The position numbers and the translations under genes are program-made. From assembly GCA_002716355.1 (NCBI GenBank), contig PBAU01000003.1:90001-122000 (forward strand): a DNA stretch of 32,000 bases, in the 5' to 3' direction. Shown one piece after another: positions 1 through 32,000 of the stretch (position 1 is the stretch's first letter; every line of letters starts with the position of its first letter). The stretch is from a bacterium (lineage in GTDB: Bacteria; UBP7; UBA6624). Under the pieces are notes generated by a model that did not search any database, was not told the origin of the DNA, and saw only the letters and a list, made by a program, of their open reading frames with translations.

Positions 1-171
1 ATTGATGAGATAACTTGTTTAATGAATGACGAACAGATAATTGAAAAATGTATTGAAGAGTCAGAGCTCTTGCTAAAAGAAGCTTTTGAAATTTTAAAAA
101 CGGTTTTGCCAGATGATTCTGGTTTTGATCCTGATTTTTGGCTTCAAATCTTTTCTAGGAGGATGAAATGA
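1..171 (+). CDS. 3' end of an unidentified CDS that enters from the left edge (57 codons visible, ...DPDFWLQIFSRRMK*)
   Basis: Frame 1 is open from base 1 to the TGA at 169-171. Its stop overlaps the sppA ATG (ATGA at 168-171), the same pattern as other coupled gene pairs in this window. No family recognised. Confidence 0.5.
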   Translation: MDEITCLMNDEQIIEKCIEESELLLKEAFEILKTVLPDDSGFDPDFWLQIFSRRMK

Positions 172-1076
172 AAAATAAAGGTTGGATATTTATAGTTGTT
201 GTTTTGCTATTAAGTTTTTTTGTTGATGATGTTAACTTAGATCAAAATATGGGATCTCATATTGCCCTACTAGAGATTAAAGGCCCGATCATGCAGGAGT
301 CATCCGGTATTTCTGCAGGTAGCAGGGATATAGCTAATGCAGTATTAAAAGCAGCTGAAAACAGCGAGGTAAGAGCTATTTTTCTTGATATAAATAGCCC
401 GGGAGGCACTGTTGGAGGCTCACAAGAGATATATTGGGCTTTGATGAAATTTAGAGATTCTGATTATTCCTATTTAGAAGATAATGGTGAGATGTTGACT
501 TCAAAAAAAATTATTCATGCTTATATTGGTGAGCTTGGAGCTTCCGGCGGTTACTATGCTGCTAGCGCAGCAAATCACATTTCCTCCCTACCCTCTTCTC
601 TAGTTGGTTCAATAGGTGTTATATTTTCAAATTTTAACTTTGTCAAGATGATGGAGAAGATAGGAATTGAGGATCAGACTTTTACAGCTGGAGAGTATAA
701 GGACCTAGGCAGTTCGTTTAAAACTATGAGTGATGAAGGCAAGAAAGTTATGCAGGAAATGATTGATGAATCTTATGATGTTTTTGTTAATGACGTTGCT
801 AATGGAAGAAAGGACTTGAGTGTGGAGGATGTAAGGAAGCTTGCAAACGGTTGGGTATACTCTGGAAACAAGGCTGTTGAAAACGGTCTTACTGATTCAG
901 TTGTTTACAGCTACAGGGAGGCTTTAGATAATTTGTGTTTAGAGATAGGAGAAGAGGCTCAGTGTGAGACTTACATGATTACACCGGAGCTCGATCCTTT
1001 TGCAGACATATTTAATCTTCTTGGTAAATTTGATTTATTGAATCATAATTTTTTTGCACTTTACCCTAATTATTAA
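168..1076 (+). CDS. sppA: Signal peptide peptidase SppA, 36K type (S49 peptidase)
   Basis: N-terminal TM anchor, plus the S49/ClpP-fold motifs INSPGGTVGGSQEIY and GELGASGGYYAASAANHI. AGGAGG lies 5 nt upstream of the ATG. Confidence 0.85.
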   Translation: MKNKGWIFIVVVLLLSFFVDDVNLDQNMGSHIALLEIKGPIMQESSGISAGSRDIANAVLKAAENSEVRAIFLDINSPGGTVGGSQEIYWALMKFRDSDYSYLEDNGEMLTSKKIIHAYIGELGASGGYYAASAANHISSLPSSLVGSIGVIFSNFNFVKMMEKIGIEDQTFTAGEYKDLGSSFKTMSDEGKKVMQEMIDESYDVFVNDVANGRKDLSVEDVRKLANGWVYSGNKAVENGLTDSVVYSYREALDNLCLEIGEEAQCETYMITPELDPFADIFNLLGKFDLLNHNFFALYPNY

Positions 1077-21695: not shown

Positions 21696-24600
21696 CTATT
21701 TCGTGTCAACAATAACCTCGTCAATTTGCCAACCTGCACCAACCACACCATCAGCATTTCCATCTCCATCTAAAGTTTGATCATCTTCCCCCCAGAAGAT
21801 AAAGCAAACGTATTTGCCTCTAAATGGACTAAGGTCAATTGTTCTTTTGTTTCCAATCGAACTTCCTCCTGCATTTGCAAAAGTATCACCAATGCTATTG
21901 CTGTAAAGCCATACGTTTCCACCCATGTAACAATCATCTATTTGTGTATCGCTCCACCTTACAACTATGCCAAATGTGCTTGGGCTGGGAGTTTCGTAAA
22001 GCTCGTTAAACAACAACCTTGTCCAGCCTCCCTCTGACACGTAATAACCATTAGCACCGGTTGAATCACCTGAAGGGTATGGGTAAGTTATCTGTAGAGC
22101 TGTGTCGTCATATGTCCATCCATCTAGGTAATTACCAGTATTAGTGTTGGTTCCAGTCATCCACATCTTGCAGTCAAGATTTCCATCGTCACCAGGTATA
22201 ACCCTCCACCATTGACTGTCATCTATCCAGTAGCCCATTTCAGTCCATGTATGTTGATCTGTACAGCTAGACCCATCACCAGGGAAAGGCTCGTAAAAGA
22301 GAGTCTTGGTGAAATCAGGTTGTTCTACAAGCTGTATATTGTCAAAAATAAATCCTGTATCAACATCTTCAGCATTAGTTCTTTGAGCTAACCCTATGCA
22401 AACATTTGAATTTCCTGCAAATTCGCTAATGTCAAGATAAAGGTATGTCCAGTCATTTGTATCAAGAGATGGATTCGTAACTCCAGTATCAACATTGACA
22501 AGCTCATTTACTATAGGGGTATACTGTCTCCATTCTCCAACAAAACAATTATCTGAATTACCTATATCTGTATTAACCCAAAGACGAATGTCTTCAAAAT
22601 CTTCAGCCGGCCTATTTAGCTGATGTGCCAAAACCAAAGCAGGATTGCTTGTTAATGAAAGATCTAAAGCTTTTTGGGTTATAAAAATAGGATCTTCATC
22701 GTTATCGTATTGTTGGGTATCTGGATTCCAGCCAGCTATCCAGGATTGGCCAGAATATGAAGCATTTGCTACCGAGCTTGACCAAACTTGGAAATAGGAA
22801 GTTTCAGTGTTTCCAAAAGAAGTTGAAACCCAATTTCCAGTACCAGCTACTTCGTCATAAAGAACATCTCCCTCAAAATTATCATACATATAAGTTGGAT
22901 ATGTCAGAGATGTTTCTGGCCCTGCTGCAGTTCCTGTTGACCCATCATCTGCAACAGCTTGGATACCATAGCAATATTTTGAATTTAAATTCAGGTTGCT
23001 TAAAACAGTTCCGCATTTTCCATCAGAGCAGCTAATGGTTTCTGATGTGCTGTCATAAGAGCCGCTATCAATTGCTGGACATTCTGATTTATTTCCATTT
23101 GAGGAATTGCTTAATGCATGAGTGTAAATCAAATATTCACATTCTCCATTTGAGGAATCTACAGGATTGCAGTGCGACAATTCATAATCCCAATAGTTAT
23201 CTTCCCACTCAAGCTCAACATCTGTTACAGCTAAAGAGGTAAAGAAAGATCCCTCCATGTTTGGGCCAGAAAGAAACATGCCAATTAAATCGGTAATAAT
23301 AACCCAGTCATAAGACGCAGGAGACGGATCAGTTAAACCGCCAGAATTTGTTGCCCTTACTCTGAAGTTGTTTTCTCCGTAAGGCAAATCGAAAGAGTAA
23401 TTTTTTGGACTTGTACATGACTCCCAGGATTCTTGATTCAATGAACATTCAAAAGTTGCCTCTGGATCATCTGAACTAAATGTGAAATCAGCTGTGTTGA
23501 AAAAGGTTTTTGAAGGTGGAGAGCTGTTTATAAAAGTATCTGGAGGCAAAATGCTTGAATCAACATTCCAATTCCAAACAGCAGGAGTTAAATCAACATT
23601 TCCAGCAGCGTCAATTGCCATAACTTCAAAAGTATGAGCTCCATCTAAGAATCCAGAATAATCTTGAGGGCTTATGCATGATTCCCATACGCCATTGTCA
23701 ATCTTGCATTCAAAAGTGCTGTTTGCTTCATTACTTTCAAAAATGAAAGTTGCTGAAGAGTCTGGTGTTGGATCAGGAGGACCATCTGTTATTGTTGTTT
23801 CTGGCTCAGTTTGGTCTATTCTCCAAGTCCATGAAGCTGGTGTTAAATCTTCATTGCCAGCTTCATCAATTGATTTAACCTCAAACGTATAGACATCTTC
23901 AAGAAGGTCTGAATAAGTTTTTGTCCCTCCATTGCATTCTTCCCATTCAATATCATCTCCTGAAACAGCGTCAAGCCTGCACATAAAGTAATCTGTCGGT
24001 TCATCATCACGATACACAAAAGAAGCTGAGGTTGAAGCTGTTGGGTCATTTGGTCCAGAATCAATATATGTTTCTGAAGGTGTTGTGTCTATATCCCAAG
24101 ACCATGAATCCCCTGTTGTATCAGTGTTTCCAGCTTGATCAGTAGCATAAACCTTGAAAACATGGCTCCCTTCCGCTAAATCACTAAAGGTGATTGATCC
24201 GGTGTTGCACTCAGTCAAATCACCACCATCCAACTCACATTGGAATGTAGCATTTGGATTTTCAGGACTTTCATATGTGAAAGTTGGAGCGGTGTTGTTT
24301 GAAGGGTTGGAAGGCCCTGTGAGAATCACTGTAGTTGGATTGATGGTGTCTATGCTCCATGTCCAAGCATCTGCAGCACCTAAGTTCCCTAAGTCGTCAG
24401 TTGATCGAACTTCAAACACATGATTTGTATTTTGCTCTAAGTTCAAATAAGTTTTTGGGCTTTCACAGGATTCCCATTCGCCATCATCCAATTTACACTC
24501 AGATGTTGAAGTTTCATCTGTAGACCATTCAAACACAGCATCTATGGAGTTGGTTGGATCCATAGGTGCGGAAGTTATTGATGTTACCGGTCCTGTTATA

Positions 24601-27600
24601 TCTATCAACCAGTTGTATTCAGAAGGAGTTGGATCAATGTTTCCAGCAAGGTCTTGTGCCCTTGTTGAAAATGTATGGCTTCCGTCTGTTAATTCGATGT
24701 AAGCTATTCCGCTTTGGCAAGCTTCCCATTCTCCATCATCCAACTTACATTCAAAAATTGCATCTGTGTCTGAGGGGCTTGAGAATGTAAATATCGCTTC
24801 AGTGGATGTTGTTGGGTCTGTTGGAGTTGAATCAATTTGGGTAGTTGGAGAAACTGTGTCTATTGTCCAGGTCCATACTGCTGGAGATACATCTTCATTT
24901 CCAAGAGAGTCAAAAGCTCTAACTTCAAATGTGAATTCACCGTCTGTTTGAGAGGGGTAAGCTTTTGGGCTAGTGCATGATTCCCAATCAGGAAGAACTG
25001 GTGATAACCTACATTCAAAAGTTGCTTCTGGGTCATCAGAAGACTCTTTGAATTCGAATGCTGGAATAGTTGCATTTGTAGGATCGTCAGGACCATTCGT
25101 TATTTCAGTTTGAGCACCTGTGGTGTCAATATTCCAAGTGTGTTCAGCGTTTGCACCTTGCACTTCAATGTTTCCTGCAAGATCCACACTCCAAGCCTTA
25201 AATACCCACTGCCCTTCAGCCAATGAAGAGTAATCTGCAGAATAAGATCCGTCTCCTTGGTCTGTCATTTCATTTGCCTGGCATGTTCCATCATTTGAAA
25301 TGCAATAAAAAACTGAAGTTAAGCCAGGAAGTGTTTCCCATGGTTGATCCTGAACACTGACTTCAAAAGTCCCGTCTGTTTCATTAGACGGGTCAGAAGG
25401 TGAACTTGTTATTGTGGTTACAGGAGCAGCTCTGTCTACATTTGTTGTGCTTTCTGCTGGCGTTGCATCAATGTTGTTTGCTGCATCCCAAGCCCTAACC
25501 ATAAATGTATGTGTTCCTTCAGCTAGAAGCTCATATTCTTTTGGACTTGTGCAGAAATTCCATGAACTCGCTGATGAGAATTTGCATTGGAAGAAAGGAG
25601 CTTCTTCATCTGCAGAGAAATGCCAAGCTATGATGTCTTCATTTGTGTATATAGCAGGCTCTATGGTTATGTTTGTCTCAGGTGGAGTTTGGTCTATTGT
25701 CCATTCTCTTTCAGCAGGTGTCGGATCGGCTGTGCCTACATCATTTAAGGCCCGAACATAAAATGTCTTAATTCCTTCTGTCAGGTCAACATAAGCTTTT
25801 GAACCCGAACCATTTATGCCATTACAAGAAGTGTAAACAGTTTCATCAGGACTCAACATACATTCAAAAATACTATCTCCTTCAGGGTTTGTAAAGGTGA
25901 AGGTAGCATTATTTACATTTGTTATTCCGCTAGGGCCTGAAGTTATTGCTGTATCTGGTATTGAAAGGTCTATTGTCCAGGTGTAACTTGCAGGGCTGCT
26001 ATCAATGTTTCCTGCAACATCTTGTGACTTGACATAAAAAGTATGTTCTCCCCCAGACATGCCAGAATAAGTTTTTGGACTTGTGCATGATTCCTCCCAT
26101 TCACCGTCATCCAGCTTGCATTCGAAAATACTACCTGTCTCGTTTGAAGTAAATTCAAAAGTTGCCTCATCAGAACCGGACAAGGATGAAGGGCCTGAGT
26201 CAATTGTTGTATTTGGATCGGTGGTATCTATGGTGAATGAATATGAATCAGGATCACTTATATTTCCTGCAAGATCAGTTGCCCTTACCTCAAAAACATA
26301 TGCGCCTTCTTGATTCAAACCAGAATACTGCCAACCTGTTCCAGGACAAGATTCCCAATCTACATTAATGCCACCACTAAGCTTGCATTCAAACCACCCA
26401 GCAGGAAGTGTATCTTCATTGCTTGAGTAAGTGAATGCAACAGTTGTTTCGTTTGTTGGGTCGTTAGGACCAGAATCCACAGAGACTTCTGGCTTAACAG
26501 TATCAACTGTCCAGCTTAAAGTTTTTTCAACATCTGCAATTTCAGCTATCTCAATATGATGAGCTTTAACTATTAAATTCTGAGAACCTTCAGGCAGGCC
26601 AGAAGCAAGCCAATAATGTCCATCAGTATCTTTGTCATTGCAGTCAAACCAACTTGAATTGTTCAGATTGCACTCAAAAGAAACCTTTTCTTCAGGGTGA
26701 TTCATTTCTTCAAAATATATCTTCAAGCCTGTAACTTCATTTGAGAAATCTCCTTCTTCAATATCACTAGGAGGGTTTGCCTTAAAGCGAAGCTCTAAAG
26801 GTTGATGCTCTATAACAGCAAAATAATCGCGTTCATCAGCATCATCACCATCTATCGTTTCATTCCCAAGAGAATCAACCACCTTGTATTGAATGAAATA
26901 TTCGTCAAGGCTTGATTCAAGAACCGGCAAGTTAGTATAAACCGCATTGTAAAACTGTCCACCATCAGATGCTAGCTGCCATGAGCCCTCAAAAGATACA
27001 ACTGAACCATCTTCTGCTCTGAATATGAACATTTGATAGTAAGCCGTATCAATATCATTAGAGTCACCATCTTCAGAGTCATTTCCAAATTCAAAAGTAA
27101 TTTGATCTTCAAAAACGATTTCGGCACTATCTGGATCTCTTGTCTTGTGCGTTATGGAAGGGCCTGTTATATCAATTGTCCATTCATGAGATTTGGATGC
27201 AGAGTTCTCCAAGTCATCCAAGCTATCAACCCTAAAGTCATGTTCACCTTCTGTTAGAGCTGTAGGTGAACCGTAAGAAAATGGACTAACACACGGATCT
27301 GTTGTAACTCCATCTAGTACACAAGATGCACTAACTCCATCATGGGTAAAAGAAATTTGACCACTTGTAGCATTTGTTGGGTCATTGGGAACTGTCTCTA
27401 GGTTTATTGTTGGCCCAGTTGTATCAACCGTCCATGTGAAAGAGGCAGGAGTCTTGTCTTCTTTTTGGTTGTCGTCAAGAAGGTAAGCTTTAACCTGGAA
27501 AGTGTACTGGGCATCTTCAAGGTTTGGGTAAGTCTTGGTTCCGCCTGGGCAACCTTGCCACCCTGCTCCATTGAGGCTACATTGGAAACCAACTGCTTCA

Positions 27601-27788
27601 GTTGATGATGTGCTGAAGCTGAATGTCGCTGTTTTTTGATTAGTTACACCTTCAGAACTAATGCCCATTGAGTTGTCGTCAATTGATGTATTTGGAGCAG
27701 ATGGCCCTGTATCACCCCCTCCTCCACCGCCACCACAAGCGACAAAGATAAAAGCAAAAGCTATAAATATAAAATTAATTTTTTTCAT
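21696..27788 (-). CDS. Giant (2030 aa) surface lipoprotein: ~16 tandem two-Cys Ig-like modules, a Cys-rich FN3-like segment, and two MAM-like/choice-of-anchor-J-like jelly-roll domains
   Basis: SPII signal MKKINFIFIAFAFIFVAC|GGGGGGGD. AGGTG lies 6 nt upstream of the ATG at 27788, and the track's GTG at 27797 is inside that SD. Repeats are described in the repeat feature. The C-terminus has DNFEGD...GFIFDNIQLVE and ...GAGWQIDEVIVD. Confidence 0.9.
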   Translation of the reverse strand: MKKINFIFIAFAFIFVACGGGGGGGDTGPSAPNTSIDDNSMGISSEGVTNQKTATFSFSTSSTEAVGFQCSLNGAGWQGCPGGTKTYPNLEDAQYTFQVKAYLLDDNQKEDKTPASFTWTVDTTGPTINLETVPNDPTNATSGQISFTHDGVSASCVLDGVTTDPCVSPFSYGSPTALTEGEHDFRVDSLDDLENSASKSHEWTIDITGPSITHKTRDPDSAEIVFEDQITFEFGNDSEDGDSNDIDTAYYQMFIFRAEDGSVVSFEGSWQLASDGGQFYNAVYTNLPVLESSLDEYFIQYKVVDSLGNETIDGDDADERDYFAVIEHQPLELRFKANPPSDIEEGDFSNEVTGLKIYFEEMNHPEEKVSFECNLNNSSWFDCNDKDTDGHYWLASGLPEGSQNLIVKAHHIEIAEIADVEKTLSWTVDTVKPEVSVDSGPNDPTNETTVAFTYSSNEDTLPAGWFECKLSGGINVDWESCPGTGWQYSGLNQEGAYVFEVRATDLAGNISDPDSYSFTIDTTDPNTTIDSGPSSLSGSDEATFEFTSNETGSIFECKLDDGEWEESCTSPKTYSGMSGGEHTFYVKSQDVAGNIDSSPASYTWTIDLSIPDTAITSGPSGITNVNNATFTFTNPEGDSIFECMLSPDETVYTSCNGINGSGSKAYVDLTEGIKTFYVRALNDVGTADPTPAEREWTIDQTPPETNITIEPAIYTNEDIIAWHFSADEEAPFFQCKFSSASSWNFCTSPKEYELLAEGTHTFMVRAWDAANNIDATPAESTTNVDRAAPVTTITSSPSDPSNETDGTFEVSVQDQPWETLPGLTSVFYCISNDGTCQANEMTDQGDGSYSADYSSLAEGQWVFKAWSVDLAGNIEVQGANAEHTWNIDTTGAQTEITNGPDDPTNATIPAFEFKESSDDPEATFECRLSPVLPDWESCTSPKAYPSQTDGEFTFEVRAFDSLGNEDVSPAVWTWTIDTVSPTTQIDSTPTDPTTSTEAIFTFSSPSDTDAIFECKLDDGEWEACQSGIAYIELTDGSHTFSTRAQDLAGNIDPTPSEYNWLIDITGPVTSITSAPMDPTNSIDAVFEWSTDETSTSECKLDDGEWESCESPKTYLNLEQNTNHVFEVRSTDDLGNLGAADAWTWSIDTINPTTVILTGPSNPSNNTAPTFTYESPENPNATFQCELDGGDLTECNTGSITFSDLAEGSHVFKVYATDQAGNTDTTGDSWSWDIDTTPSETYIDSGPNDPTASTSASFVYRDDEPTDYFMCRLDAVSGDDIEWEECNGGTKTYSDLLEDVYTFEVKSIDEAGNEDLTPASWTWRIDQTEPETTITDGPPDPTPDSSATFIFESNEANSTFECKIDNGVWESCISPQDYSGFLDGAHTFEVMAIDAAGNVDLTPAVWNWNVDSSILPPDTFINSSPPSKTFFNTADFTFSSDDPEATFECSLNQESWESCTSPKNYSFDLPYGENNFRVRATNSGGLTDPSPASYDWVIITDLIGMFLSGPNMEGSFFTSLAVTDVELEWEDNYWDYELSHCNPVDSSNGECEYLIYTHALSNSSNGNKSECPAIDSGSYDSTSETISCSDGKCGTVLSNLNLNSKYCYGIQAVADDGSTGTAAGPETSLTYPTYMYDNFEGDVLYDEVAGTGNWVSTSFGNTETSYFQVWSSSVANASYSGQSWIAGWNPDTQQYDNDEDPIFITQKALDLSLTSNPALVLAHQLNRPAEDFEDIRLWVNTDIGNSDNCFVGEWRQYTPIVNELVNVDTGVTNPSLDTNDWTYLYLDISEFAGNSNVCIGLAQRTNAEDVDTGFIFDNIQLVEQPDFTKTLFYEPFPGDGSSCTDQHTWTEMGYWIDDSQWWRVIPGDDGNLDCKMWMTGTNTNTGNYLDGWTYDDTALQITYPYPSGDSTGANGYYVSEGGWTRLLFNELYETPSPSTFGIVVRWSDTQIDDCYMGGNVWLYSNSIGDTFANAGGSSIGNKRTIDLSPFRGKYVCFIFWGEDDQTLDGDGNADGVVGAGWQIDEVIVDTK
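23295..27695 (-). repeat. Coding tandem array of ~16 divergent copies of an 83-105-aa module
   Basis: Approximate consensus: T-x-x-P-x-T-x-I-x-S-G-P-x-x-P-T-N-x-T-x-A-x-F-x-F-x-S...F-E-C-[KR]-L-D-x-x-x-W-E-x-C-T-S-P-K-x-Y-x-x-L-x-E-G-x-H-x-F-x-V-R-A-x-D-x-A-G-N-x-D-x-T-P-A-x-x-x-W-T-I-D. Copies are clearly diverged at the DNA level; a few spot comparisons looked around three-quarters identical over the best ~40 nt. Confidence 0.85.
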
Positions 27789-27826
27789 AAAGTGCACCTA
27801 AAACCTATAAAACCTAGAGTTATTGT

Positions 27827-27850
27827 ATACATTTATATATATAAATGTAT
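27827..27850. promoter_or_regulatory. Perfect 24-bp palindrome in the intergenic gap upstream of the 2030-aa lipoprotein gene (candidate operator and/or promoter -10 region)
   Basis: ATACATTTATAT|ATATAAATGTAT, checked base by base. It lies 39 nt upstream of the ATG at 27788. On the minus strand a TTGAAT spans the last nuclease codons, 17-19 nt upstream of the TATA-rich core. Confidence 0.4.
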
Positions 27851-27860
27851 TTAAAAAAAA

Positions 27861-28646
27861 TCATTCAAAAAGATAACCAAACCAATCATCTAGATTTATT
27901 GTTGATTCAATACTGTCTTCTATTGAGTCAGGCAGCATATGAAAGAAATCAATTCCAGTCTCTTGCTCTACTTCGTCTACTGATTTTGCAAAACTGGAAA
28001 GAGGTTGGTCTGAGCTTTCGTTAGCCAATATAAAACCTATTGCTTTGATTTCTGGTTGAGTGTAGTCTAAAACCACCTTGTAATAATGGGATGGAACAGA
28101 AACGTTGTTCCCCCCTATCGTGTCTAATATTGGATAACCATCGCCAAAAACAGGACCTGTAACTATATGAATCTTGTCATTTGTTTTTGCAGCATCCCTT
28201 ACATCCGCCTCAAGATCTTTCCAAATGTAGCGGTTAAATCCTGCAAGCTGAGGAGACATGTTTGAAAGAAAAAAGGATTCACTCATTGCTGTATGATCCC
28301 ATTCCATATCTCCTGCCGGAGCCAAATGGCCCCTATCGTACCCAGAGCCACTATAGTCACTCAATGATGCTGAACCATTTTCAACTGCTGGATCTTCCCT
28401 ATAGTCATCCGTTCTTTCCATATCGGAAGATGCCTGTTCAGAGGTTAATGTGTAAGCAACCCATAATGCTTGTTCATGCTCTTCACTATAGCTTAACGTG
28501 TAAGCTGTATGTGATATTATCTCTTCTTCTTCCGAGTAGTATGGGAGGCTGGCTTCCTCATCGCTTAATGGAACATACAAAACATTATCTGAGTCGCATG
28601 AAATAAAAAAAGCAAACAAGGTTAACAGCCTGATTAATTTAAACAT
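27861..28646 (-). CDS. DNA/RNA non-specific endonuclease (beta-beta-alpha-Me, Serratia NucA / EndA family), lipoprotein-type signal
   Basis: Catalytic motif GYDRGHLAPAGD and the downstream metal-ligand region FFLSNMSPQ. Signal MFKLIRLLTLFAFFISC|DSD. Its ATG overlaps the upstream TAA (TAATG). Confidence 0.88.
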   Translation of the reverse strand: MFKLIRLLTLFAFFISCDSDNVLYVPLSDEEASLPYYSEEEEIISHTAYTLSYSEEHEQALWVAYTLTSEQASSDMERTDDYREDPAVENGSASLSDYSGSGYDRGHLAPAGDMEWDHTAMSESFFLSNMSPQLAGFNRYIWKDLEADVRDAAKTNDKIHIVTGPVFGDGYPILDTIGGNNVSVPSHYYKVVLDYTQPEIKAIGFILANESSDQPLSSFAKSVDEVEQETGIDFFHMLPDSIEDSIESTINLDDWFGYLFE

Positions 28647-31600
28647 TATTGAATGACGGTTATGTAATTGCTTACAGTAGGTGTCGTTTCAAGTTGCACA
28701 ACACTTGGATTCTCGTTTGGCACAATGTCAGAATAGTTCTGAATGCTGATGTTGTAAGTTTTGCTTACAGAAGGATTGCTATCTCCTCCACCACCACCAC
28801 AAGAGGTTACAAAGAGAAGGATTGCAAAAACACCTGCGATTCTCCTTTTCTTAATTACCGCTAAACTCATGAATGCAAGAGCAAAAATCAATTCAATATC
28901 AAAAGGCATAGAAGCAAGAGATGAATCACCAGTAAAATCATATGTAATAAGATAGATTATTTCATTTACCCCATTGTCAATGCCTTGTTCATCGTCAAGT
29001 GTTATTGTTACAGTGCCATTATCTGCATTAAATTCTTCTTCGCCAAGATTGCTTTCGCTGTCAGGAATACCATCAGAGTTCATGTCAAGCCAAATTTCAA
29101 CTAAGCCTATATCGAGTTTGTCATTCCCTGTTCCAGATGCTCTTAAAGTTATTTCGTTTAATTGGTTTTGCCCAGTTATCGGACCATCAGTTTTAATGTA
29201 AGAGAACCTAAAGACAGGTTGCTGGATTCCTGAAGGCTCGAAATCTAAAGTAATAGCTGGAACAGGATTTTCATGCTTTATAGAAATGTCATATATAGCA
29301 TCAACTATAAAGTTTCTTGTTTCGCTACCACCAATATTCCCATTTATCAGAGCTCTTACTGTAAAGCTGTTGCTGCCATCTTCCATGGCTGATATTGTGT
29401 GTGAGCCTTCTCCATCAGAAAGAGTATCTCCATTGCATGAAACCCAATCTGTATTATTGCTGTCCTGGCATTCAAAGTTTGCATTTGTATTTGAACTATT
29501 AAAAGTAAACAATGTAGAAGAATTATGGATTTCCTCACCTTCTTGAGGTCCACTGATTATTGTTACATCAGCCGTTTCGGTTTCTATTGTCCATGTATAT
29601 GAGTCAGCAGATTCATCCTGGTTGCCAGCAAGATCAGTTGCCCTCACCTCAAAAGTGTGGGTTCCTACAGTAAGGTCTGCATAAGTTTCAGGACTTGTAC
29701 AAGACTCCCAGCTAAGCTCATCCCTTCTGCATTCAAATGTGCTATTTGGCTCACTGCTTTCAAAATGGAAAGTTGCAGTAATATCTGTTGTTGGATTGCC
29801 CGGTTTTGGATCATTGATTGTTGTTTCAGGTCTAACTGTATCAACAGTCCAATCATGGGCTGCAGGGCTTTGATCAGTGTTTCCGGCTTCATCTGTTGCC
29901 CTGACCTTGAAGATGTGCCAACCCTCGGAAAGGTTGTTTATCTCATAAGGGCTTGTGCACGAAAACCAGTGACCATCAGCTGTTTTCTCACATTCGAATG
30001 TGCTGTTTGGCTCACTGCTCTCGAAATCAAACACTATCGATTGGCTATTTGTGAGATCGGGAGGGTCATTCGTTATTGTTGTTTCAGGGCTATCTGTGTC
30101 TATTGTCCAATTCCATTCAGCAGGGGTGCTATCTTCGTTACCTGCCTCATCGATTGCCTTTACAAGGAAGTTATGTAGACCTTCAGCTAAACCAGAAAAT
30201 AATGAGCCTGAGGTACAAGGTATCCAATTACCCTGATCAAGACTGCATTTGAAAGTAGCATTTGAATCGTTGGATTCAAAAACGAATGTTGCTGAAGTTT
30301 CATTTGTTGGATTGTCTGGTCCTGAGATGATTGTAGTGTTTGGCCCTGTTTGATCTATATTCCAGGACCAAGATGGATCATCACTTATGTTTCCAGCTTG
30401 ATCAGTTGCCTGAACCTTGAAAACATGAGAACCATCTGGAAGATTGCTGTATACTTTGGGGCTTGTACATGATTCCCATTGATTGTCATCTAATTTGCAT
30501 TCGAAGCTGACAGATTCATTGCTTTCAAATTCAAATGTTGCTTCAGCTGAATTTGAAGGATCTGAAGGGCCATTTGTTATGTCAACTGTTGGAGCCACAG
30601 TATCAACGGTTATATTTCTTAATTCAGCTAGTCCAACATTTCCAGCTTCGTCGATTGCTCTTACCTCAAAAACATGGGCGCCTTCGCTAAGTTCTACGTA
30701 AGTTTGTGGACTTGTGCACGTTTCCCATCCTGAAGAATCCATATTGCATTCAGTCGTTGAAGGCTCATCAGCTGAAAATTCATATGTCACTGTACTGCTT
30801 GCCCAATAACCTTCTGGCCCAGAGTCTATTGTTGTTACAGGAAGGGTAAGGTCAATAGTGATTGTTTTTGAACTGCTTTCCGAAATGTTTCCTGCAGGAT
30901 CTATTGTCCTGAAATGGAATGTATGGCTTTCTTCAGCAAGTCCTGAATATTCTTTAGGGCTTGTGCAAGCGCTCCAAGGTTCAAGTTCTTTACTGCATTC
31001 ATATGAAGAATCTTCCTCATTGCTTGAAAAGCTGTATGAAACTGTTGATACGTTTATTTTTCCCTCAGGTCCACTAACTGAAACAACAGGTTGAGTAAGG
31101 TCAATTTCCCAATTGTGGGTATCACTCCCTGTGTTTCCAGATTCATCTTCTGCGACAACAACAAAAGAATAATTATCCTCACCAAGAGAATTGTAAGTAT
31201 ATGGAGAAGTGCAATTAATCGCACTGCTTCCATTCAAGCTGCAGGTAAATGTTGCCATTGGATCATCTGACTCAAATTCAAAAATGGCATTAGTTTGATT
31301 TGTTGGATTATCTGGTCCTGAATTTATCGTGACGGAAGGAGCAAAGTCAATTGTCCATTCCCAAATTGCAGGCTCGCCAACATCGCCCTCTCCTGTAGCC
31401 TCAATTGCTCGTACTTCAAAAACATGCTGCCCTTCATCAAGACCTATGTACACTCTTGGGCTTGTGCAATTGCCTGCTTCCCAATTTTCACTATCTAGCT
31501 TGCATTCAAATATTACATTCGGTTCATCACTTGAGCTGAATGTAAAAGTTGCATCAGGGCTGGCGCTTGGGTCACTTGGACCAGAATCTATTGTTGTTAT

Positions 31601-32000
31601 TGGGGCTATGTCTATATTCCATTCAAACCATGGCGGAGTGGGATCTACATTGCCTGCTTGATCGATTGCTCTAACCTCAAAATTATGTGTTCCTTCGCTA
31701 AGGTTTGTATAAGTTTTTGGACTTGTGCATGTCTCCCATGGAGCATCATTGAAAGCGTTCCAATCAAGTCTGCATTCAAATGTTGTGGTGCTGTTTTCTC
31801 CTGAATTTGTATTTTCAAATTCAAAAGTGGCAGAATTTTCACTGGATGGGTTTGGCGGACCTGATATTATCACTGTATCTGGAGGATTTGAGTCCAACGT
31901 CCAAGTAATCGTCTCATCAACAAACTGTCCATTATCATGTGTTGCCCTTACGGTTAATGACTGCCCTCCATCAGCAAGCGCACCTGACTCCCAATAGCTT
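28646..32000 (-). CDS. Giant surface protein, 5'-truncated by the window edge (1117 codons visible): at least 10 complete two-Cys Ig-like modules, a unique C-terminal domain, and a hydrophobic/KKRR/lipobox tail
   Basis: The frame stays open upstream of the track's TTG at 31897 (...SYWESGALADGGQSLTVRATHDNGQFVDETITWTLDSNPPDT...), which continues the repeat pattern. The true start is therefore beyond 32000. Confidence 0.9.
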   Translation of the reverse strand, partial: SYWESGALADGGQSLTVRATHDNGQFVDETITWTLDSNPPDTVIISGPPNPSSENSATFEFENTNSGENSTTTFECRLDWNAFNDAPWETCTSPKTYTNLSEGTHNFEVRAIDQAGNVDPTPPWFEWNIDIAPITTIDSGPSDPSASPDATFTFSSSDEPNVIFECKLDSENWEAGNCTSPRVYIGLDEGQHVFEVRAIEATGEGDVGEPAIWEWTIDFAPSVTINSGPDNPTNQTNAIFEFESDDPMATFTCSLNGSSAINCTSPYTYNSLGEDNYSFVVVAEDESGNTGSDTHNWEIDLTQPVVSVSGPEGKINVSTVSYSFSSNEEDSSYECSKELEPWSACTSPKEYSGLAEESHTFHFRTIDPAGNISESSSKTITIDLTLPVTTIDSGPEGYWASSTVTYEFSADEPSTTECNMDSSGWETCTSPQTYVELSEGAHVFEVRAIDEAGNVGLAELRNITVDTVAPTVDITNGPSDPSNSAEATFEFESNESVSFECKLDDNQWESCTSPKVYSNLPDGSHVFKVQATDQAGNISDDPSWSWNIDQTGPNTTIISGPDNPTNETSATFVFESNDSNATFKCSLDQGNWIPCTSGSLFSGLAEGLHNFLVKAIDEAGNEDSTPAEWNWTIDTDSPETTITNDPPDLTNSQSIVFDFESSEPNSTFECEKTADGHWFSCTSPYEINNLSEGWHIFKVRATDEAGNTDQSPAAHDWTVDTVRPETTINDPKPGNPTTDITATFHFESSEPNSTFECRRDELSWESCTSPETYADLTVGTHTFEVRATDLAGNQDESADSYTWTIETETADVTIISGPQEGEEIHNSSTLFTFNSSNTNANFECQDSNNTDWVSCNGDTLSDGEGSHTISAMEDGSNSFTVRALINGNIGGSETRNFIVDAIYDISIKHENPVPAITLDFEPSGIQQPVFRFSYIKTDGPITGQNQLNEITLRASGTGNDKLDIGLVEIWLDMNSDGIPDSESNLGEEEFNADNGTVTITLDDEQGIDNGVNEIIYLITYDFTGDSSLASMPFDIELIFALAFMSLAVIKKRRIAGVFAILLFVTSCGGGGGDSNPSVSKTYNISIQNYSDIVPNENPSVVQLETTPTVSNYITVIQ
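28799..28870 (-). other. In-frame internal lipoprotein signal peptide-like segment (MSLAVIKKRRIAGVFAILLFVTSC) near the 3' end of the giant ORF
   Basis: ATG at 28870-28868, KKRR at 28852-28841, lipobox VTSC with the Cys codon at 28801-28799, then GGGGGD. No stop codon separates it from the upstream giant ORF, and no SD is visible upstream of this ATG. Confidence 0.45.
29300..32000 (-). repeat. Coding tandem array: 10 complete copies and 1 partial copy of the two-Cys module found in the 2030-aa paralogue
   Basis: Module boundaries fall at W-x-I-D / x-x-P-x-T-x-I-x-S-G-P. Each copy has F-E-C-x(9-17)-C-T-S-P and G-x-H-x-F-x-V-R-A-x-D-x-A-G-N. Hand-counted module lengths range from 83 to 94 aa. 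Confidence 0.85.

What the first reader, a model, noticed from the sequence alone, without database searches (positions are those of the whole stretch)
28646..28912. A complete lipoprotein signal peptide and Cys-poly-Gly linker lie in frame, 74 codons from the end of the upstream giant ORF
The giant ORF ends ...SSLASMPFDIELIFALAF-MSLAVIKKRRIAGVFAILLFVTSC-GGGGGDSNPSVSKTYNISIQNYSDIVPNENPSVVQLETTPTVSNYITVIQ*.

The stretch MSLAVIKKRR / IAGVFAILLFV / VTSC is a textbook Sec/SPII signal (basic n-region, h-region, lipobox). It is followed by the same Cys-Gly(n)-Asp linker that opens the mature 2030-aa paralogue (FVAC-GGGGGGGD).

At the DNA level, 28784-28803 (tcctccaccaccaccacaag) and 27720-27739 (tcctccaccgccaccacaag) match at 19 of 20 nt, including the synonymous Gly codon choices.

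Read from the other direction, ELIFALAFMSLAVI followed by KKRR looks like a C-terminal sorting or anchor signal: a hydrophobic helix plus a basic cluster, as in LPXTG, PEP-CTERM and similar tails.

Possible explanations:
1. A small 74-aa lipoprotein gene became fused to the giant gene by loss of a stop codon, or by an assembly error.
2. An in-frame nested gene uses the internal ATG at 28870, although no SD is visible upstream of it.
3. The tail is a remnant of the 5' end of a third paralogue after recombination.
4. It is a real two-helix tail in which a C-terminal anchor is followed by an internally processed lipobox, which would be an undescribed topology.
Basis: partly seen in the sequence, partly recalled or inferred. 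Interest (0 to 1): 0.7.

Follow-up and report, generated by a model that had tools for sequence, protein, structure and literature searches.

The report
Lipoprotein signal inside a C-terminal anchor
A giant secreted protease of an uncultured marine bacterium ends in a conserved two-helix membrane hairpin whose second helix is a textbook lipoprotein signal, apparently inserted into a loop of the last beta-sandwich domain; this is a real, rarely seen and experimentally untested way of tethering a protein by its C-terminal end.

Summary
The last 555 nt of the ORF are identical in six independent assemblies. Four orthologue lineages (down to about 46% identity) keep the whole tail in frame under purifying selection.

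The tail belongs to a 1636-aa protein: N-terminal Sec signal, S8 subtilase, Ig-like repeats. The same C-terminal module occurs in four unrelated high-GC secreted proteins. Its order is beta-sandwich ending "YLVTYDF", hydrophobic helix 1, Arg/Lys cluster, helix 2 with lipobox, invariant Cys, Gly linker, then 40-60 more residues.

Tandem uninterrupted copies of that beta-sandwich exist in a Candidatus Omnitrophota protein. Against them, the hairpin, lipobox and Gly linker align as a clean insertion, and the post-Cys residues align with the domain's last strands.

NCBIfam NF058595 ("lipo-invert putative C-terminal anchoring domain") hits every tail-bearing protein, but only at 14-22 bits (cutoff 37). 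The kind is therefore catalogued, and this is a divergent variant, not a member. No paper on it was found.

Inferred mechanism: helix 1 stops transfer, and helix 2 re-exports the chain as an internal type II signal. Lgt and LspA would then lipidate and cleave at Cys1586, and the lipidated strands would complete the split domain and tether the protease. Lipidation, cleavage and strand complementation are untested.

The parts
28646..32000 (-). 3' part (1117 codons) of the giant gene, which runs off the window. The full product is 1636 aa: Sec signal, ~130-aa presumed propeptide, Peptidase_S8, about ten Big_13/OmpL47-type Ig-like repeats, a terminal split domain and the tail.
   Evidence: It is NCBI MBG97817.1, 'hypothetical protein [bacterium]'.
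28934..29221 (-). N-terminal two thirds (six predicted strands) of the last beta-sandwich domain, ending in IIYLITYDF.
   Evidence: hhalign against uninterrupted P0010 repeats: 99.5% probability, E 4e-22. AF2 pLDDT 74-86.
28898..28933 (-). Unstructured linker TGDSSLASMPFD. The motif [AV]S.PF[DN]IE is conserved only among the marine orthologues.
   Evidence: AF2 pLDDT below 50.
28853..28897 (-). Hydrophobic helix 1 (IELIFALAFMSLAVI), the presumed stop-transfer segment running from outside to inside. It contains the Met codon 28868-28870.
   Evidence: Hydropathy peak of 2.6. AF2 helix at residues 118-132. Present in all 8 family members.
28841..28852 (-). Basic cluster KKRR, the presumed cytoplasmic loop that also serves as the n-region of the internal signal.
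   Evidence: KKRR, KKRK, RRKK, RKKR, RRLR, RRRR, RQR and RRTR in the 8 members. Replacing the basic residues costs 5.8 bits against NF058595.
28799..28840 (-). Helix 2 (h-region) plus lipobox, IAGVFAILLFVTS-C, an internal type II (lipoprotein) signal. The Cys codon is 28799-28801.
   Evidence: PS51257 core matched. Cys is invariant in 8 of 8 members. Cys to Ala abolishes the NF058595 hit.
28784..28798 (-). Gly5 linker. The same Cys-Gly(n) opening is used by genuine N-terminal lipoproteins of this genome.
   Evidence: Deleting the Gly run abolishes the NF058595 hit.
28649..28783 (-). Post-Cys 45 residues (three predicted beta strands), proposed to be the last strands of the split domain.
   Evidence: pN 0.27 against pS 0.64. 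Collinear alignment with the ends of P0010 repeats. AF2 strands with pLDDT 73-78.
27861..28646 (-). Downstream gene, a 261-aa lipoprotein DNA/RNA non-specific endonuclease. Its start overlaps the giant ORF's stop (TAATG). It is syntenic in all orthologous loci.
21696..27785 (-). 2030-aa lipoprotein with the same Ig-like repeats. Its N-terminal signal is FVAC-GGGGGGGD. It has no C-terminal tail and serves as a comparison.
   Evidence: Its N-terminus scores only 9.2 bits against NF058595.

Best explanation
**Shown**
- The tail is a genuine, selected part of the giant S8 protease gene.
- It belongs to a recurrent C-terminal module found on Sec-exported proteins.
- The module is a roughly 165-residue beta-sandwich domain interrupted after the strand 'YLVTYDF'. 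The insertion consists of hydrophobic helix 1, a 3-4 residue Arg/Lys cluster, and helix 2 ending in a lipobox with an invariant Cys and a Gly-rich linker.
- The domain's last 40-60 residues follow the insertion.

**Inferred**
1. After the N-terminal signal has taken the roughly 1550-residue passenger across the cytoplasmic membrane, helix 1 stops transfer.
2. The basic cluster stays in the cytoplasm.
3. Helix 2 acts as an ordinary type II signal peptide in its normal N-in/C-out orientation and re-exports the rest of the chain.
4. The housekeeping enzymes Lgt and LspA (plus Lnt, if the organism has an outer membrane) lipidate Cys1586 and cleave in front of it.
5. The lipidated C-terminal strands complete the beta-sandwich of the passenger. 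The mature protease is then held on the membrane through its C-terminal end by a lipid, and by the leftover hairpin until that is removed.

**Rationale (inferred)**
A subtilase normally sheds its N-terminal propeptide, so an N-terminal lipid anchor would be lost. A C-terminal tether is needed instead. This design obtains one without a dedicated sortase-type enzyme.
For: **Not an artefact**
- Zero mismatches over the last 555 nt in six assemblies from different samples.
- Orthologues at 76%, 52% and 46% identity keep every element in frame.
- Synteny with the endonuclease gene is conserved.
- Synonymous sites are saturated (pS 0.64-0.86) while pN is 0.27-0.40, and it is lowest in the post-Cys part.

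**Recurrent module**
- An exhaustive HMMER search of 1.84 billion representatives found P0005, P0007 (another S8 peptidase), P0008 (CSLREA / choice-of-anchor Q passenger) and P0013 (choice-of-anchor T passenger) with the same order of elements.
- The three of these that are full-length (P0007, P0008, P0013), and the window protein, start with an N-terminal signal; P0005 is a 203-aa fragment without an N-terminus.

**Lipobox**
- Cys is invariant in 8 of 8 members.
- The PS51257 core is met in the window protein and, among the five relatives scanned, in P0001, P0005 and P0008 (not in P0007 or P0013); L013 and L014 carry the same LLFVTSC / LFFVTSC core.
- The distance from basic cluster to Cys is 13-18 residues.
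- The Cys-Gly(n) linker matches that of bona fide lipoproteins in the same loci.

**Split domain**
- Uninterrupted tandem copies occur in P0010.
- hhalign gives 99.5% probability up to TYDF.
- The hairpin-deleted profile aligns collinearly to template positions 24-165 of 167.
- MAFFT places the hairpin, lipobox and Gly run as one clean insertion with both flanks aligned.
- An HMM of the post-Cys segments hits P0010 only at the collinear ends of repeats 1 and 3. The best score is above the 95th percentile of 500 shuffles.
- AF2 predicts three post-Cys strands at pLDDT 73-78, although the helices and linker are poorly predicted.
- The spliced sequence gives pTM 0.71 with nine strands.

**Known analogue**
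- NF058595 hits all tail-bearing proteins and none of the controls.
- Its score depends on the Cys (-7.8 bits), the Gly run (hit lost) and the basic cluster (-5.8 bits).
Against: - No experiment shows lipidation or cleavage.
- No SignalP or LipoP run was available.
- Helix 1 is short: 13-15 apolar residues in the marine proteins.
- P0007 (LWAC) and P0013 (PMAAC) fail the strict PROSITE lipobox pattern.
- Support for homology of the post-Cys segment on its own is weak: hhalign E 0.11 over 9 columns, and 1.7 bits against a shuffle maximum of 4.4.
- In the spliced AF2 model the last two strands have low pLDDT.
- I had no coordinates or PAE, so contact between the post-Cys strands and the domain body was not seen directly.
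- Foldseek and PDB sequence searches gave no significant match.
- P0025 ends with a true stop right after TYDFAP, so a copy without the last strands can exist, though it may be a decayed gene.
- After LspA cleavage the passenger would still carry the hairpin, so the added value of the lipid is unexplained unless the hairpin is later removed.
- The phylum, and therefore the envelope type, is unknown.
Confidence: 0.6

Rival explanations
1. Plain two-helix membrane anchor. The hairpin holds the protease in the cytoplasmic membrane, and the Cys is not lipidated or cleaved. On this reading the lipobox resemblance is incidental, or the Cys has another role.
For: - Both hydrophobic segments and the basic loop are conserved.
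- Two distant members fail the strict PS51257 core.
- Nothing shows processing.
Against: - A single helix plus KKRR and a stop would suffice as an anchor.
- Instead, an invariant Cys at the end of helix 2, small residues at positions -1 and -2, and the same Gly linker used by genuine lipoproteins of these genomes are kept in 8 of 8 proteins across very distant lineages.
- The curated NF058595 model weights exactly this Cys and the Gly run.
Confidence: 0.17
2. Nested or additional small gene. Translation also starts at ATG 28868-28870 and yields an independent 74-aa prolipoprotein, which would mature to a 51-aa lipopeptide. This could occur with or without read-through from the giant ORF.
For: - Read from that Met, the peptide meets all PS51257 rules: Lys at position 7 and Cys at position 24.
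- A Met at this column is kept in all four marine orthologues.
- The genome rarely uses an SD, so the lack of one says nothing.
- The gene caller produced P0003 (87 aa), starting at the Met of MPFDIE, not at 28870; it looks like a product of a contig that begins inside the gene, but its contig was not examined.
Against: - There is no stop or intergenic signal in front of it in any lineage.
- P0005 and P0008 have no Met in helix 1.
- The post-Cys part is the collinear end of a domain whose first two thirds lie upstream in the giant ORF, so the single-chain product explains the conservation.
- The upstream codons are under the same constraint.
Confidence: 0.1
3. A classical tripartite C-terminal sorting signal (motif PFDIE, helix, KKRR) handled by a dedicated sortase-like enzyme, to which an unrelated lipoprotein leader became fused.
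For: - [AV]S.PF[DN]IE followed by a helix and a basic cluster is conserved in the four marine orthologues.
- Distant members carry 'choice-of-anchor' and rhombotarget-like passenger domains. These are passenger types that elsewhere use such signals.
Against: - The motif is absent from the distant members.
- The basic cluster is never at the C-terminus; 65-85 residues always follow.
- No exosortase, rhombosortase, sortase or CPBP gene lies in the window or next to three other tail genes.
Confidence: 0.08
4. Artefact or recent accident: an assembly error, a lost stop codon that fused a small lipoprotein gene, or a recombination remnant of a paralogue's 5' end.
For: - The 19/20-nt match to the paralogue's lipobox and Gly run.
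- One scaffold (L011) carries only the post-Cys part, next to an unrelated gene, with the break at the Gly run.
Against: - Identical DNA in six assemblies.
- Four diverged orthologues and four unrelated proteins share the architecture.
- Purifying selection acts on the tail.
- The codon match has P of about 0.02 and is not conserved.
Confidence: 0.03

Closest known systems
NCBIfam NF058595.1 'invert_tail', the lipo-invert putative C-terminal anchoring domain (a database model; no publication found)
   Same: - It lies at the C-terminus of secreted proteins.
- The model's internal positions, about 50-86 of 113, require a basic cluster, a hydrophobic stretch, a conserved Cys and a Gly-rich run. 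About 30 further positions follow. This was shown by mutational probing.
- All eight-family proteins tested hit it and controls do not.
   Different: - Scores are 14-22 bits against a cutoff of 37.
- The first ~30 and last ~25 model positions are not matched, and removing helix 1 does not lower the score. This is therefore a different sequence family with the same layout.
- Whether the NCBIfam family is also a split beta-sandwich could not be checked.
Ordinary bacterial lipoprotein (type II, Lgt/LspA) signal peptides, PROSITE PS51257
   Same: The n-region, h-region, lipobox and Cys, followed by a Gly linker, are indistinguishable from the N-terminal signals of the neighbouring 2030-aa and endonuclease lipoproteins.
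   Different: - It is located 1568 residues into an already exported protein, behind a stop-transfer helix.
- Cleavage would leave the lipid on a 51-residue C-terminal fragment, not on the main protein.
MYXO-CTERM / myxosortase (PMC11980579), and the wider tripartite C-terminal signals LPXTG, PEP-CTERM, GlyGly-CTERM and PGF-CTERM
   Same: - They serve the same purpose: tethering a Sec-exported protein by its C-terminal end.
- They share a helix followed by a basic cluster in the cytoplasm.
- MYXO-CTERM also relies on an invariant Cys predicted to be lipidated, possibly by Lgt.
   Different: - In those signals the motif and Cys precede a single helix, and the basic cluster ends the protein. The paper itself notes the 'inverted topology' relative to lipoproteins.
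- A dedicated enzyme cleaves them.
- Here a second helix restores the normal lipoprotein orientation, the Cys follows it, 45-65 residues come after it, and no dedicated enzyme is evident.
Domains that are cleaved internally yet stay assembled (SEA domain of mucins, GAIN domain of adhesion GPCRs). This comparison is from my own knowledge.
   Same: The proposed outcome is the same: a chain break inside a beta-rich domain, with the two fragments held together by strand complementation and one fragment carrying the membrane anchor.
   Different: - Those domains cleave autocatalytically and are eukaryotic.
- Here the cut would be made by signal peptidase II in an inserted membrane hairpin.
- The analogy is untested.

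Membership tests
NCBIfam NF058595 lipo-invert C-terminal anchoring domain | Whole-protein score at or above the curated cutoff of 37 bits | tested here: not met
   The window tail scores 14.3-18.5 bits. P0001 scores 18.7, P0005 21.8, P0007 18.2, P0008 18.2 and P0013 13.8.
NCBIfam NF058595 lipo-invert C-terminal anchoring domain | Internal basic cluster, hydrophobic stretch, conserved Cys and Gly-rich run near the C-terminus of a secreted protein | tested here: met
   Cys to Ala costs 7.8 bits or loses the hit. Deleting the Gly run loses the hit. Replacing the basic cluster with Ser costs 5.8 bits. An ordinary N-terminal lipoprotein signal with poly-Gly scores only 9.2 bits.
NCBIfam NF058595 lipo-invert C-terminal anchoring domain | Match along the whole 113-position model, including its first ~30 and last ~25 positions | tested here: not met
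   Matched model ranges lie within 20-100, mostly 31-86. Removing helix 1 does not lower the score.
Bacterial lipoprotein signal peptide (PS51257 / SPII) | Lipobox core {DERK}(6)-[LIVMFWSTAG](2)-[LIVMFYSTAGCQ]-[AGS]-C preceded by Lys or Arg | tested here: met
   VFAILLFVTSC follows KKRR. The core is also met in P0001, P0005 and P0008 (regex), and L013 and L014 carry the same LLFVTSC / LFFVTSC core. It is not strictly met in P0007 or P0013.
Bacterial lipoprotein signal peptide (PS51257 / SPII) | Located at the N-terminus, with Cys within residues 15-35 of the precursor | tested here: not met
   Cys is residue 1586 of 1636. The condition is met only if translation started at Met1563.
Bacterial lipoprotein signal peptide (PS51257 / SPII) | Diacylglyceryl modification by Lgt and cleavage by LspA | not testable with these tools
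   This needs lipid labelling, globomycin treatment or mass spectrometry.
Tripartite C-terminal sorting signals (LPXTG, PEP-CTERM, GlyGly-CTERM, MYXO-CTERM) | Family-wide signature motif directly before the helix | tested here: not met
   PF[DN]IE occurs only in the four marine orthologues. There is no shared motif in P0005, P0007, P0008 or P0013.
Tripartite C-terminal sorting signals (LPXTG, PEP-CTERM, GlyGly-CTERM, MYXO-CTERM) | The basic cluster ends the protein | tested here: not met
   Between 65 and 85 residues follow the cluster in all eight proteins.
Tripartite C-terminal sorting signals (LPXTG, PEP-CTERM, GlyGly-CTERM, MYXO-CTERM) | A cognate sorting enzyme encoded in the genome | tested here: inconclusive
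   None lies in the 32-kb window or beside the tail genes on L012, L016 and L017. Whole genomes were not available.
Peptidase S8 (subtilase), the passenger | Pfam PF00082 above its gathering score | tested here: met
   103.5 bits at residues 159-431 of the full protein from L003. This part lies outside the window.

The most novel reading that the evidence does not exclude
The module is a self-contained way of giving an exported protein a C-terminal lipid anchor with only the housekeeping lipoprotein machinery.

- A membrane hairpin that carries an internal type II signal is spliced into a loop of a beta-sandwich.
- LspA cuts the chain inside the domain.
- The N-acyl-diacylglyceryl-Cys-Gly5 fragment stays bound by strand complementation, as a bacterial counterpart of SEA and GAIN domains.

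The passenger is then lipid-tethered non-covalently. It could be handed to Lol or surface-export pathways, or shed in a regulated way once the leftover hairpin is clipped off in the disordered linker.
Probability: 0.35. Interest if true: 0.8.

Novelty: new variant of a known kind. Interest (0 to 1): 0.65.

Why it matters
C-terminal tethering of bacterial surface proteins is thought to need dedicated enzymes such as sortases, exosortases, rhombosortases, myxosortase or type IX secretion (T9SS). This module would achieve it with Lgt and LspA alone.

If confirmed, several things follow:
- LspA and Lgt can act on signals deep inside a polypeptide.
- Bacteria use split, non-covalently reassembled domains as anchors.
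- Annotation pipelines and signal-peptide predictors, which look only at N-termini, miss a class of lipid-modified products.
- Proteases that shed their N-terminal propeptide have a way to remain cell-bound.

The family is rare: about six 50%-identity clusters among 1.84 billion representatives with this profile. It is also wholly uncharacterised.

Tried and rejected
**Searches that gave nothing usable**
- The profile search of the 5.8-billion protein set with the six-tail alignment returned nothing. Low-complexity words probably swamped the candidate list.
- The genome-contig scan with the tail found no relative.
- The last homologue search (P0005) added only P0025. This copy is truncated by a real stop right after TYDFAP, followed by a terminator-like hairpin, and was not informative.

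**Structure and fold**
- Foldseek against the PDB with both AF2 models found nothing below E 0.01.
- A profile search of PDB sequences also found nothing significant. The fold is a generic beta-sandwich.
I rebuilt it with the unspliced relatives.

**Taxonomy and literature**
- Every NCBI name is just '[bacterium]' or 'uncultured bacterium'.
- Searches for 'lipo-invert', internal or C-terminal lipobox, internal signal peptide with LspA, and NF058595 found nothing relevant.

**Ideas dropped**
- The 19/20-nt identity as evidence of gene conversion, because P is about 0.02 and it is not conserved.
- The missing SD as an argument against internal initiation, because SDs are rare throughout the window.
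- A conserved neighbouring sorting enzyme, because none was found.

Full report
**1. The observation**

On the minus strand an ORF is open from the window end (31999) to TAA at 28646-28648.

...YLITYDF-TGDSSLASMPFD-IELIFALAFMSLAVI-KKRR-IAGVFAILLFVTS-C-GGGGG-DSNPSVSKTYNISIQNYSDIVPNENPSVVQLETTPTVSNYITVIQ*

Coordinates of each element are given. The Met codon is 28868-28870, 74 codons from the end.

- The segment VFAILLFVTSC fits the PROSITE PS51257 lipobox core.
- Hydropathy shows two peaks split by KKRR.
- The 20-mer 28784-28803 matches 27720-27739 at 19 of 20 positions. These are the only two matches in the window at up to 3 mismatches.

The stop overlaps the ATG (TAATG) of a 261-aa lipoprotein endonuclease (PF01223). 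That gene is followed by a 2030-aa lipoprotein whose N-terminus is FVAC-GGGGGGGD.

**2. It is not an artefact**

The endonuclease sequence led to six contigs from different samples and assemblers: NCBI MAG GCA_002456105.1, three Tara/ENA assemblies, one ENA+NCBI contig and one Logan assembly. All six have the last 555 nt of the giant ORF with zero mismatches.

The full gene encodes 1636 aa in L001 (1807 aa in L003, which has an extra repeat block). Its parts are:
- an N-terminal Sec signal, MNKLFNFLFIFLCLIGSKSTA
- about 130 residues, presumed to be a propeptide
- Peptidase_S8 at residues 159-431
- about ten Big_13/OmpL47-type Ig-like repeats
- a final domain and the tail

Three further orthologue lineages keep every element in frame, with the endonuclease gene next door:
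- L013: 76% identity over the tail
- P0001/L007: 52%
- L014: 46%

Between the window and L007, synonymous sites are saturated (pS 0.64-0.86). Non-synonymous differences are held to 0.27-0.40, and the post-Cys part has the lowest value.

The 19/20 DNA match has a probability of about 0.02 once the amino acids are fixed. The orthologues use other Gly codons.

**3. It is a recurrent module**

A profile of the two marine tails was scored by HMMER against 1.84 billion representative proteins. It found four unrelated, high-GC proteins with the same C-terminal layout:
- P0005, a fragment
- P0007, 689 aa, another S8 peptidase
- P0008, 1012 aa, with CSLREA, choice-of-anchor Q and rhombotarget-A-like regions
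- P0013, 1784 aa, choice-of-anchor T-like

In all eight proteins the order is the same:
1. a domain ending in [YF]L[VIF]T[YV]DF
2. a variable linker
3. a hydrophobic segment of 13-21 residues
4. three to four Arg/Lys residues
5. a hydrophobic segment of 13-18 residues ending in small residues
6. an invariant Cys
7. GGG(G)
8. 40-63 more residues with a beta-strand pattern

This order is shown. The three distant proteins that are full-length (P0007, P0008, P0013) and the window protein begin with a Sec-type signal, so the passenger is extracytoplasmic. No sorting-enzyme gene, and no other gene in common, flanks the tail genes in four contexts.

**4. The hairpin interrupts a domain**

One weaker hit, P0010 (Candidatus Omnitrophota, MCM8824475.1), carries three tandem, uninterrupted copies of the same domain of about 165 residues. 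An example is:

...YLLTYDFNGKASIGETFMCGVNLATDIVAKG...FPIMGGVMTIQ

| Test | Result |
|---|---|
| Profile-profile comparison of the tails with these repeats | 99.5% probability, E 4e-22, up to TYDF |
| Same comparison with the hairpin removed | Alignment runs collinearly to the end of the domain (template 24-165 of 167). KTYNISIQNYSDIV pairs with KTFQTIFTQATDIV, and TPTVSNYITVI with FPIRGGVITLV |
| MAFFT on unspliced relatives together with P0010 repeats | Helix 1, basic cluster, helix 2, Cys and Gly run form one clean insertion |
| HMM of the eight post-Cys segments against P0010 | Hits only at the collinear ends of repeats 1 and 3. Best score 1.7 bits; shuffle 95th percentile 0.2, maximum 4.4 |
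| AlphaFold2 on the natural 200 residues | Six strands before the hairpin (pLDDT 74-86), two helices (about 50-60), a disordered Gly linker, then three strands after the Cys at pLDDT 73-78 |
| AlphaFold2 on the spliced sequence | Nine-strand model, pTM 0.71, but the last two strands have low confidence |

I regard the split-domain reading as moderately well supported. I could not inspect coordinates, and the post-Cys segment alone is statistically weak (E 0.11).

**5. Relation to what is known**

NCBIfam release 20 contains NF058595.1, 'lipo-invert putative C-terminal anchoring domain'. It hits the window tail and all five tested relatives at 14-22 bits (cutoff 37). It does not hit any of the non-tail controls.

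I probed the model with edited sequences:

| Sequence tested | Score against NF058595 |
|---|---|
| P0005 tail, unedited | 21.2 bits |
| P0005 tail, Cys to Ala | 13.4 bits |
| P0005 tail, Gly run deleted | hit lost |
| P0005 tail, RRLR to SSLS | 15.4 bits |
| P0005 tail, helix 1 deleted | 22.8 bits |
| Window tail, unedited | 18.5 bits |
| Window tail, Cys to Ala | hit lost |
| N-terminal lipoprotein signal and Gly7 of the 2030-aa neighbour | 9.2 bits |

The curated model therefore has a lipoprotein-signal-like core in its interior (about positions 50-86 of 113), which is the same layout. Our proteins do not match its flanks, so they are not members by its threshold.

No paper in the searchable library mentions the model or an internal or C-terminal lipobox of this kind.

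The nearest published concept is MYXO-CTERM/myxosortase. There an invariant Cys before a single C-terminal helix is thought to be lipidated, perhaps by Lgt. The authors point out the inverted topology relative to lipoproteins (PMC11980579). The tail described here would solve that topology problem by adding a first helix, so that a normal type II signal can follow.

**6. Mechanism**

*Shown:* the architecture, its conservation, the Sec signal on the passenger, and the insertion into a domain.

*Inferred:*
- Helix 1 acts as a stop-transfer segment, and KKRR stays in the cytoplasm (positive-inside rule).
- Helix 2 acts as an internal SPII signal.
- Lgt and LspA process the chain at Cys1586, giving two products. 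One is the passenger with the hairpin. The other is a 51-residue lipopeptide (Cys-Gly5 and three strands) that completes the passenger's last beta-sandwich.

A plausible reason for the design is that subtilases discard their N-terminal propeptide, so only a C-terminal tether keeps the mature enzyme on the cell. Two of the five distinct passengers are S8 peptidases.

*Open points:*
- whether the leftover hairpin is later clipped in the disordered linker, where the marine orthologues conserve [AV]S.PF[DN]IE
- where the complex ends up
- what kind of envelope the organism has; the taxonomy could not be resolved beyond 'bacterium'

**7. Rivals**

- A plain two-helix anchor without lipidation remains possible. 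It does not explain the invariant Cys, lipobox and Gly linker.
- Internal initiation at Met1563 cannot be excluded, because the Met is conserved in the marine clade and SDs are rare in this genome. It is not needed, and P0005 and P0008 have no Met in helix 1.
- A sortase-type signal is contradicted. The basic cluster is never terminal, and there is no family-wide motif or enzyme.

**8. Verdict**

This is a real and conserved feature. It is catalogued only as a putative database domain, it is experimentally untouched, and here it appears in a divergent form with evidence that it splits a beta-sandwich.

- Novelty: new variant of a known kind.
- Interest: 0.65.

Noticed in passing
L011 866-1033 (TARA_SAMEA2623756 scaffold_249181): A 55-aa ORF consists only of the post-Cys ~40 residues of the tail. 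It is nearly identical to the L013 orthologue. A 33-nt AT-rich spacer and a divergent ScpB gene precede it, and a TAATG overlap with an endonuclease-like start follows it. Homology breaks exactly at the Gly run. It is either a chimeric scaffold or a deletion variant that lost the giant gene.
   Followed up: partly
L003 3714-9137 compared with L001 5091-10001 and the window: The giant protein is 1807 aa in one assembly and 1636 aa in another and in the window. The extra 171 aa are one additional Ig-like repeat plus an exact duplicate of the neighbouring repeat. This is either repeat-number polymorphism or an assembly difference.
   Followed up: no
window 28644-28648; L013 3424-3428; L007 1329-1343: The stop of the giant ORF overlaps the endonuclease start (TAATG) in the window and in L013. 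In L007 and L014 a 9-nt spacer separates them. This suggests translational coupling of the protease and nuclease genes in part of the clade.
   Followed up: no
window 21696-32000: Three consecutive genes encode exported hydrolase or adhesin-like proteins: an S8 protease with Ig repeats, a lipoprotein DNA/RNA endonuclease, and a 2030-aa Ig-repeat lipoprotein. This looks like a cell-surface scavenging locus.
   Followed up: partly
L015 4001-4684 (P0025): A 227-aa CLIPPER/DUF11-type protein carries the same terminal domain. It stops with a true TAG right after YLVTYDFAP, exactly where the hairpin begins in the tail family, and a terminator-like inverted repeat follows. It is a truncated or decayed copy.
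   Followed up: partly
L016 10604-10660: The gene directly after the tail-bearing P0013 starts with an ordinary lipoprotein signal ending in WTSC-GGGG. This mirrors the window, where lipoprotein genes follow the tail gene.
   Followed up: no
window, gene starts listed: Only about 3 of 17 gene starts have a recognisable Shine-Dalgarno sequence, and many ORFs are listed with TTG starts. Window GC content is 36%. The lineage is named only '[bacterium]' in NCBI, and no phylum could be assigned.
   Followed up: partly
window 168-1076 (+): An S49 (SppA-type) signal peptide peptidase gene lies in the same window. It is a housekeeping enzyme and could in principle clear cleaved signal remnants. No link to the tail was tested.
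   Followed up: no
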